Source: Hormiphora californensis (Eukaryota; Animalia; Ctenophora). Taken from it: a stretch of 64,000 nt of DNA. The notes under the pieces were generated by a model. The model saw nothing but the letters and a program-made list of their open reading frames with translations. It made no database searches and had not been told where the DNA came from. This document shows positions 2,293 through 25,600 of this stretch, piece by piece. A program made the translations under genes and the position numbers. Location of the stretch: contig CM035358.1 of NCBI GenBank assembly GCA_020137815.1, positions 5,518,001 through 5,582,000 on the forward strand. Direction: 5' to 3'. Each line of letters starts with the position of its first letter. Position 1 is the stretch's first letter.

Positions 2293-2347
2293 ATGGCGTT
2301 TGTCCGAGCAGCGGCAGGAGCAAGCGTCCGAACTCCACCTAGAAGAG
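2293..2347 (+). CDS. Candidate alternative first coding exon of the Kv channel (MAFVRAAAGASVRTPPRR, phase 1)
   Basis: ATG-initiated, open to AG|GTAAGA donor; phase 1 matches the acceptor at 15103. Confidence 0.55.
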
Positions 2348-2599
2348 GTAAGAGTGTGACAGTGTGTGCTTGAATTGAAAAGCGCTGCCTTATCCTACGT
2401 ATGTGTGTGCTGGAACGTCTTTCCACTATAGTGGATATAGTTGCTATTTAAGATGAACAGGAGAATTATCTTCCTCTCTCATTTTGTGTTTTGTAGAATA
2501 TATATATTCGACGCCTTCGTATTATGATAGGCGCCCGAATGAAGTTGTGACTTGTCACTGTAGTCTTGTGGAGTAAATTATGTGACAAGTCACATAATT

Positions 2600-2889
2600 T
2601 AAAGTCAAATTTTTAACAAAGTGAACCGCTTGCGCGCGAAATGGTTTTCCAACGCACCACGGGAAAGTTTTTCCCCGATTGTTTCGAACATATCTCTGGC
2701 TCCTGATAAGATTAAGACTTGATCCCGGTTGCGTTAGAAAGAGAAAAACTGTATCTTTCCAATGCGACCAATGAAAAGTCTCTATGATCTTATCAGGAAC
2801 CGGATTTACCACACGCAAAAACTTTTCGCACACGGTGCGTGGAAAGTTTTTGTGTGCAAGCGGTTCGCTTTATTAAAAATCGGACTTTA
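2600..2889. mobile_element. Degenerate MITE with inverted ends and internal 'ctcctgataagat...atcttatcaggaaccgg' motif
   Basis: taaagtc...aaccgcttgc is inverted relative to gcaagcggtt...ggacttta; internal motif shared with 29395-29970 and 47050-47160. Confidence 0.55.
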
Positions 2890-3675
2890 CTGTGCAATTC
2901 ACAACTTGTTCTTTTTATTCTAACTGAGACTGATCGTTTTTGTGTAACCTCATTTTACTCAAAACTGACTGACGTAGTTGCAGATTCTTTAATCCATCAT
3001 CATCGCATTGAGTTAAAAAAGTGATCTCAAACGACAATCAATTAGTCCAGGTGTTTTAATTGTCGAGGCAGAATTAATGTGTCAGTAGTCGTTGTTGTTA
3101 CAGTTTAGTTTTCGATGTTCCTTGCTTTTCCATTTGAGGCAATGCTTTTATGTAAAAAGTTCAACGCCCTTGATGGGTCAAGTGCTTCACCTATAATAAT
3201 CTTTCTGGCAACATTTTAAAATGTTATGTAATTTCAATTCAGCATAATAATTCGACAACTTACGCTCTCTTACACGTTACAGCACTCTAATATACGTCAC
3301 TACTATTATACAACGTGTTGCTCTTCCCTCTTTTTAGACTTTCTAGACTCTGTATGGACTACAACACGTGTAGTGGAGGGTAGGTGGGGGAGAGGGTGAG
3401 AGAGAGAGAGAGAGAGAGAGAGAGGAGAGAGAGAGAGAGAGAGAGAGAGAAGAGAGAGAGAGAGAGAGAGAGAGAGAGAGAGAGAAGGAGAGGGAATATA
3501 GTATTTGATAGGGCAAGCGATCAGCACGTGCCTGTACTGCACTGACCTACACTAGACACATACACACCCACACACACCCACACACTTAGTTGTTCTTTCA
3601 CTTTATTGTTTCTTTGTGTATAATTGATATTGAGTCACCCCTAATTACTCGACAAAGATTAACCTCACCGCAGTC

Positions 3676-3754
3676 ATGTGGGGCATGGTTGCGAACCAGC
3701 AGCAACGCCCGGAGGTCTCTCAATCTCACTGGCCACACCACCGCGGTAACGGAG
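3676..3754 (+). CDS. Candidate alternative first coding exon of Kv (MWGMVANQQQRPEVSQSHWPHHRGNG, phase 1)
   Basis: ATG open to GAG|GTAAGG; 79 nt = 26 codons + 1. Confidence 0.5.
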
Positions 3755-21809: not shown

Positions 21810-21904
21810 TTAATAGTGTGCACCTCTAGTAAGTTGGGATCAGAGCTACCCAGTGATTCCTCTACTGCAGCAGCTGCCATAGTGCCGCCTCCACCACAGC
21901 CACC

Positions 21905-22021
21905 ATGCGAGTTAGGCTACAAGAGGATGAAGATGTATCGTACAACCCGTTCAGCACTAACACCAGCAGAAGCCGCTCTCCTGCCGCTCACCTAATATGC
22001 CTTGCTCCCTATTCAGAGAAG
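21905..22021 (+). CDS. Proximal alternative first coding exon of Kv (MRVRLQEDEDVSYNPF...APYSEK, phase 0)
   Basis: GCCACCATG context, 39 codons, AAG|GTAGGA donor, in frame with 22619. Confidence 0.65.
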
Positions 22022-22618
22022 GTAGGAGAATGAGAGAATGATTCGTACTATTCGAATATGCTAAGTGTTTATGCAAGCGTGATCCTGTGGGCAGCAGTAA
22101 TTGCGTTTGATTCATACTTTTTTGTTGTTAGTCTCTCTTGAATAAATTGAACTTAAGGAATGAAAGCGTCTTTATTTGTTAAACTTCTCGAAAAAACTGA
22201 GGTACAACTAAATTCTAAAACACAATTTACACCATTATGTCATGACAAATTAAACTATACAGTGTACTAGCAGACTGACTACATATTAGTTTTTAAATTT
22301 GGTATGAATTTGCTGCAGTGGAGACTATTTACAACGAGGTTTACAACCAATAACCATCCGGTTGTTAGCCAAGTGATTGTCTCATAAAAGATTGCCATCT
22401 CCGAACCTGGCCGAATCATGTTGCTGGATTGGAAATAAAGGGCACAAAAAACTTCTTCCCCTGATTGACTGATTCTTAATTGAATTTTAGTGCACTGCTA
22501 AATCGTACTTGAAGTAATTTCCTCCAAACAGCGACAAGAAAAACAATTCTCCCCCTCACTACTTGGTTACCATGGTTACTACTTGGTTACCATGGTACAA
22601 AACAATTCTCCCCCTCAG

Positions 22619-25600
22619 ATGGATGATGACGAAGATGAAGAGCCAGATTTTGATACAATCATAATAAACGTGTCGGGGAAGAAATTCGAAACTTGTCTCA
22701 GGACATTATCACGATTCCCAGACACCAGACTTGGTAGCGTAAAGGTACATATTATACCTTTTTTTAGCGAAGGACAGCCGCCAGGGGAAGGGTGGTAATA
22801 GAATATAGAACCTATTATACTATGTACCTATGTACTACTATACTACTCTGACGGATTTGTGGGGCTGTTAGCCATATCTCAGAACTTGTTTTGTTGAAAC
22901 ATAGAACACCTATCAATTGCAATATAACTCTATTCTCAGACACGGCAACGTTATTGGAACAAATTGAAAAACGAATATTACTTTGACCGGAACCAAGAGG
23001 CGTTTCACGCTGTTTTATATTACTACCAGTCACATGGATCACTCTACATGCCCCCGTCCATACAAGAACACATTTTTTATCAGGTAATTATTATACAGCT
23101 CTGAATTACAATTTAACACAGAGCATTTACTGTAGTATGGTGTTTATTGAAAGGCTGAAGTAGCTAAATAACAATGCGAAGAAGTGTTCAACTAATTACA
23201 GCATACATTTTTCAGGAGTTAGACTTTTGGGGGATACATCCGGAGCATGAAAGAAGAACAGAAAATGGGTTTGCGTTAGTCGACGAAGTTGATCCGCAAA
23301 AGCAGGCACACGACTTTCGCTGGGGCGAAATGCAGAAAACTATGTATATCTTCCTGAATAAACCCAAGTCGAGTTTCGGAGCTCGAATATGGGCTTCCGT
23401 GGACATCTTTGTTATTCTTTGCAGCGTCATTAATTTGGTAAGCAGTCAAACAAATTGATTGGATAAAACCCACACTTTGTTAAACCAAAACGATTTTTTA
23501 AATTACCTCTAGATTTAAGTTTATATTTCTGACCAATATTTTTCCAGGTAGTCGAATCGTATGGGAATAAAAACCGTAGCCCTGGAGATACGACAACGCC
23601 CTACTTCTTTGTCGACGCAACTTGTGTATTATTTTTTAGTACAGATATCATCCTTCGGTGTCTTGTAGCGCCGGTTAGTCAACAAGATTCATATCTCACG
23701 ATATGAGCATATAGATATGATTATTAGTTGGTTTCATTCATTACTTTAAGTGATAAATTTAATTTAACTAATTCTACAATTACTGAACCTTTTATCCTGT
23801 CAGGATATCGGAAATTTTTTCAAAAAGCCTCTAAATTGGTTTGATTTCTTGGCGATTATGCCCTTTTATATGGAACTATCAATGGGAAGTTTTATGCGAT
23901 CGGGAAATCTCAACAACAATATTATTATGCCTTTTAAAATCCTCAGGTATATAAACACACTTGATTTACACACACACTGCACAGTGGTTCTATTTTATAC
24001 ACTACTGTAAATTTCAATTTACCAGGCCCAACAACAGCTTTCTAAGAAAATGGACATTTAACTATTTTATTTTAATAGACTCTTGACTCTCATGTTTCTA
24101 TTGTGACAAGTGAAACAAGGTTTCCGCATCCCCGGATCGAGCACTCTACCAGGATACAAACTTCTAAATCTAACTAGACTCTCATGTTTCGTAATTTTTG
24201 TTCCCTCCAGGATATTCCGGATAACGAGAGTCCTAAAATTAATTCGGCACAGCGGGAGACTTATTCTTATGATCCAGGTATTCATTGCTACCCTACCAGA
24301 AAACTATTGAACGGGTCCCGCGATTAGGGTACACTCAGTCGCATGCTAGATCCATGCTCACCGAAGGGCGAAGGGTGTGAATAAGGGTATCGCGTGGTGA
24401 GCGTGGGGGGATAGAAGCGTAGAGTCTATTTTTGGCCCGAAAAAACAAAAGACGGTTATTAAGCAGTATGCTCCTTTGTCAACAAAAAAAATACGGTTAT
24501 TTAGCCGCCCTCATCAAAAAAAGCAGCATGCTCCTTCATCAAAAAATCTATCTCCAGGTGTTACTGGACTGTGTTTACGAGTTATGTATGTTGCTGGTTA
24601 TCTGGCTAATGGGTGTCTTCATCTTCGGGACAATCATGTTCTACATTGAACATGAACAACCCAACACAGCCTTTAAATCCATCATGCATTCCTGCTGGTG
24701 GAGTGTGGTCTCCATGTCAACGGTATGTGAGTTTTGGCAAATTGCCCACAGTGATTTGTGCATCCATGGTGTTACCATGGTAATAACAATCGACTTTCGT
24801 GTGTGTGACATGATGAGAGTTTTAAGCATTCAAAACAATATCCCCTAACCTGGGGTTTCTTAAGATGTACGTGTGTGCGTGTGAAACTTTCTTCAAAAAG
24901 ATCATTATATCCCCAAAATAAATCAAAGCCTAGAAAATAGAGAATGAAGCGACCATGTGTAATCGAGTGTGTGCGTGTGGGAGCCCTTAAAACATCATCA
25001 TCCAAAATTTCATCCATATCCAGTCCCTCTCTCGTAGAGAGTCCCTGGATAACAAGAATTTACAAATGTTCTCCCCCTCTCTTGCTAACTACTAGGTTGG
25101 CTATGGAGATATGTATCCTACAACAGCCATAGGAAAGGTGGTAACCTCGGTCCTAGTTTTCTGTTCCATGGTATTCCTTGCCCTGCCGATGACCATCATT
25201 GTGTCAAAGTTTAATAAGGCGTTCGAGACTCTGAAAAAGCCCAGGAGAAAGTCCGCCAAACCACCGAGATCGGCGGGGAGTGGAGGACGAGGAGGAGGAG
25301 GAAATCAGTAGATCTAGTGAGGATACATCTCGTCTTTGTATTCTTTAATGTGTTCTAGCTATATAGTCTCCTCTATCTTCCTCTATCTTTCTACTAATCT
25401 CTCTCTTTAGTGGGTGCTATAAAGTATTCTAAACGAACTGATCTGCAATCTCCGAACTTTTCGAAACAAAAAGGAATTTTGAGGGTTTTGAAGATTTCTT
25501 TTTAAAATTAGTATAGGTTGATTTCTCTTCGATAAAACTGAATAAGGTTGATTTCTCTTCAATAAAAACTGAATAACAATCTGACTTCTGACTTCTCTTT

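What the first reader, a model, noticed from the sequence alone, without database searches (positions are those of the whole stretch)
2293..22744. Combinatorial N-terminus cassette: about seven alternative first exons feeding one Kv channel, sorted by phase
Seen: five ATG-initiated exons upstream of the adaptor exon (2293, 3676, 5891, 13159, 14006) can all be read ending in phase 1, matching the phase-1 acceptor at 15103. The two downstream of it (15719, 21905) end in phase 0, matching the core acceptor at 22619. The core exon itself begins with ATG, and donors at ~4774 and 8566 could close non-coding first exons. Established: alternative N-termini of Shaker channels supply N-type inactivation ball peptides. 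Inference: a multi-promoter system generating many gating variants from one gene. I selected the exons by eye, so some may be chance.
Basis: partly seen in the sequence, partly recalled or inferred. Interest (0 to 1): 0.8.

Follow-up and report, generated by a model that had tools for sequence, protein, structure and literature searches.

The report
Comb-jelly channel with two swappable ends
A comb-jelly potassium-channel gene has several alternative start segments (one seen spliced in RNA, one matching a related species) and two alternative pore-end segments kept in four comb-jelly sequence sets, so it likely builds many differently gating channels from one gene, much as the fruit-fly Shaker gene does, and likely by separate invention.

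Summary
The gene is a ctenophore Shaker Kv channel, orthologous to Mnemiopsis ACHWQZ_G015942 and Bolinopsis XP_063687268-83. Outside evidence supports the design. One RNA contig joins exon 5891 to acceptor 15103 and the adaptor to core 22619. Exon 3676 and the adaptor match Bolinopsis isoforms. Each relative has five annotated N-termini. Exons 2293, 13159, 15719 and 21905 are plausible but unproven; 14006 is probably chance; acceptors 14995/15049 have no support. Both copies occur in Mnemiopsis, Bolinopsis and a further transcript. This gives fly-Shaker-like N x C combinations. Gating effects and separate promoters are untested; spliced-leader trans-splicing is a rival. The scan already noted variable N-termini at a paralog in this genome (e1-10648812); the pore switch is new here. 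I found no paper on ctenophore Kv splicing.

The parts
2293..2347 (+). candidate 5' coding exon (ATG to donor), phase 1, 18 codons; non-polar start then basic residues; plausible, unproven
   Evidence: donor 98th percentile, GC 0.60 above all 96 controls; shares only its first three residues with Bolinopsis X2, score at control level
3676..3754 (+). 5' coding exon, phase 1, homologous to the start of Bolinopsis isoforms X1/X8; a second possible donor at 3746
   Evidence: first five residues identical, score above all shuffles and controls; donor 99th percentile
4772..4780 (+). possible donor of a non-coding 5' exon (intron would start at 4775); unproven
   Evidence: donor score 98.6th percentile; Bolinopsis X6 has four accessions for one protein, which fits several non-coding 5' ends
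5891..5990 (+). 5' coding exon, phase 1, acidic start; spliced to 15103 in RNA
8564..8572 (+). possible donor of a non-coding 5' exon (intron would start at 8567); unproven
   Evidence: donor score 99.4th percentile
13159..13213 (+). candidate 5' coding exon, phase 1, uncharged 18 codons; plausible, unproven
   Evidence: donor 98th percentile, GC 98th percentile; no RNA cover, no homolog
   Evidence: donor 77th percentile; rank 96 of 97; no RNA cover
14963..15124 (+). triple 54-nt tandem copy of the adaptor acceptor (AG before 14995, 15049, 15103), each in frame with its own ATG
   Evidence: only 15103 seen used
15103..15206 (+). adaptor exon, phase 1 in, phase 0 out, with its own in-frame ATG at 15111; first 11 residues identical in Mnemiopsis and Bolinopsis
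   Evidence: RNA contig covers it exactly and runs on into 22619; adaptor-like letters precede the core in a divergent run
15719..15817 (+). candidate 5' coding exon, phase 0, direct to core; plausible, unproven
   Evidence: donor 99th percentile; no RNA cover, no homolog
21905..22021 (+). candidate 5' coding exon, phase 0, charged start; plausible, unproven
   Evidence: donor 92nd percentile; rank 1 of 118 against one relative type but below control best; no RNA cover
22619..24722 (+). constant core, 7 exons (22619-22744, 22940-23083, 23216-23437, 23548-23673, 23804-23946, 24211-24277, 24558-24722): T1, S1-S5, pore helix; starts with ATG
   Evidence: three introns bridged by RNA contigs
25096..25311 (+). 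alternative last coding exon A: GYG filter, S6, short tail
   Evidence: Pfam Ion_trans_2; A-type ends in Mnemiopsis, Bolinopsis and L002; no RNA cover in the runs laid
26101..26424 (+). alternative last coding exon B: GYG filter, S6, long tail
   Evidence: Pfam Ion_trans_2; B-type ends in Mnemiopsis, Bolinopsis and L002; part covered by an X1 contig

Best explanation
This is one ctenophore Shaker-family potassium-channel gene whose constant core is preceded by alternative 5' exons in two tiers and followed by two alternative filter-S6-tail exons, and it likely yields a set of channels that differ in whether and how fast the N-terminus plugs the open pore. Shown: exon 5891 joins the adaptor, the adaptor joins the core, exon 3676 and the adaptor start are conserved, and both last exons are conserved. 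Inferred: transcripts probably start at several sites; far-upstream exons add a phase-1 peptide in front of the adaptor; non-coding or out-of-frame leaders let translation begin at the adaptor's own ATG; nearer exons skip the adaptor; and the core's ATG gives a tail-less form. Uncharged starts (3676, adaptor ATG, perhaps 2293 and 13159) would act as N-type plugs; acidic or charged starts (5891, 21905, core ATG) would give non-inactivating channels. Choice of the proximal or distal acceptor for the last exon would change outer-S6 residues and the C-tail, multiplying the set by two.
For: RNA junctions 5990>15103 and 15206>22619 on one contig. Orthology 99% SH-aLRT on a quick tree; 82-85% identity over the core. 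11 Bolinopsis isoforms with 5 starts plus a cassette exon, and 7 Mnemiopsis isoforms with 5 starts. In Bolinopsis 4 of the 5 starts occur with both last exons, in Mnemiopsis 2 of 5. The residue three places before the adaptor Met is Gly or Ser in Bolinopsis, as a split phase-1 codon predicts. Six columns separate all four A exons from all four B exons; A-A identity 40-43 of 44, B-B 37-42, A-B within a species 33-37, so the duplication is old and both copies are kept. Fly Shaker plugs need an uncharged non-polar N-terminus and share no sequence (PMC2229190 abstract; PMC12460158 passages). N-type inactivation exists in ctenophore Shakers (bioRxiv 2024.12.09.627618 section 10), and MlShak4 (Mlei_10392a) has a very similar S6 by eye. 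Residues 2-8 carry no charge in 3676, 13159 and the adaptor start, 4 charges in 21905 and 7 in the core start.
Against: No gating data exist for this gene: its Mnemiopsis ortholog is not among the 38 Mnemiopsis rows of the PMC11287247 alignment. 7 of 16 Mnemiopsis Shakers gave no homomeric current. Not all ball-like sequences inactivate (PMC11287247 passage). Only 1 of 7 candidate exons has an RNA junction, from one contig at depth 4 with 17 letters on the short side. The two direct-to-core N-terminus types conserved between Mnemiopsis and Bolinopsis have no significant match in the window. The 3676 start has low mean hydropathy (-0.06) and no net positive charge at 9-20. The A and B exons are the same at the positions matching Shaker 449, 463 and the plug contacts 470, 475, 478, 482, 486 in the window, so the ShA/ShB route to C-type differences does not apply. 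The relatives' isoforms are automatic annotations; N-C pairings may not rest on long reads (my knowledge of such pipelines).
Confidence: 0.6

Rival explanations
1. The alternative 5' exons are real but serve mainly to place the gene under different cell-type controls; the peptides they add are tolerated spacers, or translation mostly starts at the adaptor or core ATG, and gating hardly changes.
For: The first-exon peptides diverge fast: only 1 of 7 has a clear homolog. The RNA-proven exon is acidic. The adaptor start is the best-conserved N-terminal piece, and four Bolinopsis transcripts give that same protein.
Against: Frames are kept open into the adaptor; the first five residues of 3676 are identical in Bolinopsis while the rest diverges, as expected for a working tip; two direct N-terminus types are well conserved between Mnemiopsis and Bolinopsis (scores 140 and 102).
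Confidence: 0.2
2. The variants are chosen not by separate promoters but by spliced-leader trans-splicing or by splicing from shared non-coding leaders onto acceptors upstream of each 'first' exon; the protein outcome could be the same.
For: At least 56% of Hormiphora long reads carry a leader, and Mnemiopsis has it too (PMC8527503 section 37). Acceptors in the top 3% lie within 250 nt upstream of 4 of 7 candidates (3676, 5891, 13159, 14006).
Against: No strong acceptor precedes 2293, 15719 or 21905; the two chance candidates scored alongside (7203, 17104) also have top-3% acceptors, so the signal is uninformative. No 5' ends were seen.
Confidence: 0.25
3. The protein is a silent or regulatory subunit; its variable ends tune partners, trafficking or lipid anchoring (the adaptor start fits an N-myristoylation-type pattern, recalled, not tested) rather than a homomeric current.
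For: 7 of 16 Mnemiopsis Shakers gave no homomeric current. S6 has PMT in place of PVP and no hinge glycine. A and B differ most in their C-tails.
Against: PMT is shared with the functional homomers MlShak4 and MlShak15 (rows; names); S4 has six basic residues at three-residue spacing and the filter is intact.
Confidence: 0.15
4. Most candidate exons are chance ATG-donor pairs and the window's gene has only two or three real 5' exons.
For: The minus strand gives as many candidates as the plus strand (13 versus 12). No RNA cover on 13159, 14006, 15719 or 21905, though cover of the whole gene is thin.
Against: Both relatives have five annotated starts; 2293 and 3676 pass a joint donor-and-GC filter that no control passes.
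Confidence: 0.2

Closest known systems
Drosophila Shaker (Kv1) with five alternative N-termini and ShA/ShB C-terminal splice variants (PMC2229190 abstract; PMC2223370 passages)
   Same: One Kv gene, several unrelated N-termini joined to a constant T1-S5 core, plus alternative S6-bearing variants.
   Different: Separate lineage (38% identity to an insect Shaker over the core; ctenophore Shakers form their own clade). Two tiers with a shared adaptor exon that has its own start codon. The duplicated exon begins at the filter valine (443). A and B do not differ at 449 or 463. In the moth and gnat Shaker isoforms fetched here the alternative exon is the upstream turret/pore-helix exon ending at residue 449, a different boundary.
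Ctenophore Shakers MlShak4, 5, 13 (N-type inactivating) and MlShak15 (bioRxiv 10.1101/2024.12.09.627618)
   Same: Same ctenophore Shaker radiation, PMT-type S6, no T1 zinc motif.
   Different: Studied as one ORF per gene; the preprint has 0 occurrences of 'splic', 'isoform', 'exon' or 'variant'. This gene's ortholog is not in the 38-row Mnemiopsis set of PMC11287247; it may be among the 42 of the preprint, whose supplements are closed.
Annotated orthologs Bolinopsis microptera XP_063687268-83 and Mnemiopsis leidyi ACHWQZ_G015942
   Same: Adaptor exon, MWGMV-type start (Bolinopsis), direct-to-core starts, A and B last exons.
   Different: Bolinopsis has an extra 21-residue cassette after the adaptor that is not found in the window; the window has a triple acceptor and the 5891 exon, not found in the relatives' isoforms.

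Membership tests
Shaker-family Kv channel | T1 (BTB_2) domain before a six-helix Kv module | tested here: met
   Pfam BTB_2 on exons 22619 and 22940, Ion_trans on later exons; ortholog matches Kv1.2 structures at E 1e-71 to 1e-74
Shaker-family Kv channel | Basic S4 and GYG selectivity filter | tested here: met
   six basic residues at three-residue spacing; filter intact in both last exons
Ctenophore Shaker clade (Kv1-like, not Kv2-4) | No T1 zinc site; groups with ctenophore Shakers | tested here: met
   H-x5-C-x20-CC pattern (recalled) absent; it was found in 2 of 3 Kv3/4 controls. Quick tree places the gene with Mnemiopsis and Bolinopsis orthologs inside a 99% ctenophore group
Fly-Shaker-type combinatorial gene | Several alternative N-termini spliced to one core | tested here: met
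   RNA junction, conserved exon, 5 starts in each of two relatives
Fly-Shaker-type combinatorial gene | Alternative S6-bearing 3' exons | tested here: met
   exon A itself not covered by RNA of the window's species
Fly-Shaker-type combinatorial gene | S6 variants differ at position 463 and so in C-type inactivation | tested here: not met
   position 463 is Val in all A and B exons; 449 is Tyr in both window exons (rule from PMC2223370)
N-type inactivating Kv channel | Fast inactivation lost on N-terminal deletion | not testable with these tools
   needs electrophysiology
N-type inactivating Kv channel | Uncharged non-polar N-terminal tip followed by basic residues | tested here: inconclusive
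   2293 is non-polar with net +3 after but has one Arg in the tip; 3676, 13159 and the adaptor start are uncharged but lack net basic charge; 5891, 21905 and the core start fail
Multi-promoter gene | Separate capped start sites upstream of each first exon | not testable with these tools
   only assembled contigs were available

The most novel reading that the evidence does not exclude
Comb jellies, the sister group of all other animals, invented the fly-Shaker design a second time: one Kv gene that mixes pore-plugging and non-plugging N-termini through a two-tier exon cassette with a switchable filter-S6 exon. Variable N-termini are widespread in their Shaker family (3 of 4 other genes checked, including the expressed MlShak15), so the published one-ORF-per-gene survey undercounts ctenophore potassium currents and some reported phenotypes belong to single isoforms.
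Probability: 0.4. Interest if true: 0.72.

Novelty: new variant of a known kind. Interest (0 to 1): 0.52.

Why it matters
Ctenophores are the test case for whether electrical signalling complexity arose twice. Their Kv diversity has been counted by genes. This locus shows a second layer, splicing at both ends, that parallels fly Shaker with different exon boundaries. It names a small set of constructs that test directly whether splicing switches one gene between transient (A-type) and sustained currents, and it offers natural S6 variants that differ outside the known C-type positions. It is not a new principle: the design is textbook in flies and the isoforms already stand, uncommented, in automatic annotations of two relatives.

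Tried and rejected
No whole genome is held for this window. Only two runs were offered: X1 held 0.09 of the words, X2 next to none; both are contigs. Reads were laid on 21815-26500 and 12920-16540 only, stretches without long repeats, so the exons at 2293, 3676 and 5891 and the donors at 4775 and 8567 were never laid. No cover was seen on 13159, 14006, 15719, 21905 or exon A; with depth of 2-7 on a third of the bins this is no evidence of absence. Phase enrichment as evidence: rejected after the minus-strand control; the 9-donor matrix included 5991, which scores only 1.1 when left out, so the matrix is a crude guide. Synonymous codon usage did not separate candidates from 96 controls (49th-80th percentile). 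Homology of 15719, 13159, 5891, 14006 to any relative's N-terminus: none above control. A donor just after the stop of exon A in the window (25317), which would copy the L002 layout, scores -4.4 and is unsupported. Acceptors upstream of the candidates are uninformative. A complex prediction of the Bolinopsis N-terminus with four pore domains was not folded and gave no verdict; pore binding remains untested. The careful tree did not finish; the quick tree is used, with long-branch warnings away from the target group. One of 12 members of the Bolinopsis cluster (P0014, an unrelated 51-residue fragment) was dropped. PMC11309979 and the journal version of the preprint are not held; bioRxiv supplements are closed and could name this gene as an MlShak and give the N-terminus used. 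Searches with no relevant paper: 'ctenophore + alternative first exon + ion channel' (0 papers), 'Mnemiopsis + potassium channel + splice variant' (6, none on topic by title and abstract start), 'Mnemiopsis leidyi + alternative splicing + isoforms + long-read' (5, none on topic), (0).
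Full report
Gene identity. The core is a Shaker-family Kv channel in seven exons, 22619-24722, open over 993 nt with GT-AG borders; Pfam finds BTB_2 and Ion_trans on the exons. The third exon finds 3 relatives among 11 candidates: Mnemiopsis ACHWQZ_G015942 (81%), Bolinopsis XP_063687271 (77%) and an ENA fragment. A search with a full Bolinopsis isoform finds only these two orthologs; the next hits are 44-48% paralogs. 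A quick tree of 33 rows groups the window model with the two orthologs at 99% support, with the window on the longest branch. Three core introns are bridged by X1 contigs; 2 of the 5 contigs laid are 99% alike or more, so X1 holds this species or a very close one.

Checking the observation. The seven ATG-to-donor stretches and their phases are as stated and read in frame into the adaptor or core. That alone means little. A coding exon must end in the phase of its acceptor, and a blind scan finds 12 candidates on the plus strand and 13 on the minus strand at the same donor threshold. A joint filter on donor and GC keeps 2293 and 3676 and no control; I set it after seeing the data.

RNA evidence. 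One X1 contig of 151 nt, depth 4, matches 15103-15206 with no difference. Its upstream loose end of 17 nt equals 5974-5990, the end of the 5891 exon, unique in the window; its downstream loose end equals the first 30 nt of the core with one substitution. So 5891 > adaptor > core is spliced, through the third acceptor. In the divergent run X2 (RNA is a guess by the tool) a 1188-nt contig has 199 letters before the core start, the last 30 of which resemble the adaptor end (7 of 10 codons give the same residue, compared by eye).

Conservation. Bolinopsis has 11 annotated isoforms with five starts, Mnemiopsis 7 with five starts. Both use the adaptor's own ATG, whose first 11 residues are identical to the window's. 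Bolinopsis X1/X8 begin with the same five residues as exon 3676 and then enter the adaptor; X2 enters it from another exon that shares only three first residues with 2293. The junction residue is Gly or Ser, as a split phase-1 codon gives in the window. Two further starts go straight to the core in both relatives and are well conserved between them, but have no significant match here; 21905 is the best of 118 candidates for one of them yet below the control best. So the two-tier layout is shared, while most first-exon peptides are lineage-specific or have diverged past recognition. Verdict per exon: 5891 and 3676 supported; 2293, 13159, 15719, 21905 plausible; 14006 probably chance.

After 24722 the gene has two exons that each begin at the filter valine and carry GYG, S6 and a tail: A (25096-25311) and B (26101-26424). 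Both types are annotated in Mnemiopsis and Bolinopsis, paired with the same N-termini. A metagenome-collection contig from another ctenophore, L002, lacks the core introns and reads core > A > stop, with B starting 4 nt later. So B can sit in the 3' UTR of an A message; the choice is between a proximal and a distal acceptor, either as a cassette or as alternative last exons. The window has no convincing donor after A's stop, so the detail may differ by species. Six columns separate all A from all B exons in four sequence sets: Shaker-equivalent 453, 459, 461, 465, 487, 488 (numbering anchored on residues named in PMC2223370 and PMC12460158, which fit the insect row). Positions 449 and 463, which set C-type inactivation in ShA/ShB (PMC2223370 passages), and the plug-contact positions (PMC12460158 passages) do not differ in the window. 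The function of the switch is therefore open: outer-S6 packing or C-tail targeting are my guesses.

Mechanism. Shown: the splicing layout. From established work: an uncharged, non-polar N-terminal tip plugs the open pore, unrelated tips can do so (PMC2229190 abstract; PMC12460158), and three Mnemiopsis Shakers use this mechanism (preprint section 10). Inferred: the starts differ sharply in the first eight residues. 2293 is closest to the insect ShB-type start; 3676, 13159 and the adaptor start are uncharged; 5891, 21905 and the core start are acidic or charged. The simplest use is a switch between transient and sustained currents, with the adaptor acting as shared tether for upstream tips and as a tip of its own when no upstream frame is added. 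I put this at about 0.6 given the layout is real. Against it: the tips lack the usual basic segment, ball-like sequences do not always inactivate, and the channel may be silent alone. Whether promoters or trans-splicing pick the start is untested (PMC8527503 section 37).

Comparison and novelty. It works like fly Shaker in layout but is not a Kv1 ortholog in the strict sense: ctenophore Shakers form their own clade (preprint section 9), and the alternative pore exon has another boundary than in the moth and gnat isoforms fetched. Independent origin is therefore likely, though not tested across sponges, cnidarians or other ctenophore orders. Variable N-termini are not unique to this gene: 3 of 4 other ctenophore Shaker genes whose clusters I listed have two or more annotated starts (G004911, G015328, G013394), none with an alternative pore exon in the rows printed. 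G015328 matches Mlei_02524b, which is MlShak15 (matched by eye). The three ctenophore channel papers searched for the words have no occurrence of 'splic' or 'isoform'; four searches found nothing on ctenophore Kv splicing; the Biophysical Journal paper and the preprint's supplements could not be read.

Papers seen: bioRxiv 2024.12.09.627618 outline, passages, sections 9, 10 (part 1 of 2), 13; PMC11287247 passages, all six supplements searched, file 5 parts 4-5 read; PMC8527503 passages and section 37; PMC12460158, PMC2223370, PMC13749725 passages; PMC2229190 abstract only.

Verdict. A real, conserved, two-ended splicing system in a ctenophore Kv gene; fewer proven first exons than claimed, one extra module, function untested. 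New variant of a known kind, interest 0.52.

Noticed in passing
window 9382-10694 and 20495-21821: Two 1.3-kb near-perfect foldback elements (arms about 620 nt, 99% complementary, 98-99% alike) in the Kv introns; the second ends about 85 nt before the 21905 ATG. Related ORF fragments recur near 32376-33665.
   Followed up: partly
window 14963-15124: The adaptor's acceptor is tripled by a 54-nt tandem repeat that keeps frame; use of the upstream copies would add 18 or 36 residues. A similar short duplication lies before the core acceptor (22537-22618).
   Followed up: partly
proteins P0027/P0029/P0131-P0140, P0032/P0141, P0047/P0049/P0153-P0155: Three other ctenophore Shaker genes have several annotated N-termini; one is the expressed MlShak15, whose published phenotype may be that of one isoform.
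   Followed up: partly
L002:535-575: Exon B starts 4 nt after the stop of exon A in this transcript-like contig; if that is a splice junction the A message would escape nonsense-mediated decay by the 50-nt rule (recalled).
   Followed up: partly
proteins P0017, P0019, P0020: Bolinopsis has a 21-residue cassette after the adaptor that resembles the adaptor's second half, apparently a duplicated exon; no counterpart found in the window.
   Followed up: partly
   Followed up: no
window 53193-54434: Intronless 413-codon frame that looks like a phosphagen (arginine-type) kinase with an N-terminal hydrophobic leader (label from memory of the family, not searched).
   Followed up: no
window 30155-34459 (minus strand): Multi-exon membrane-transporter-like gene downstream of and opposite to the channel.
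   Followed up: no
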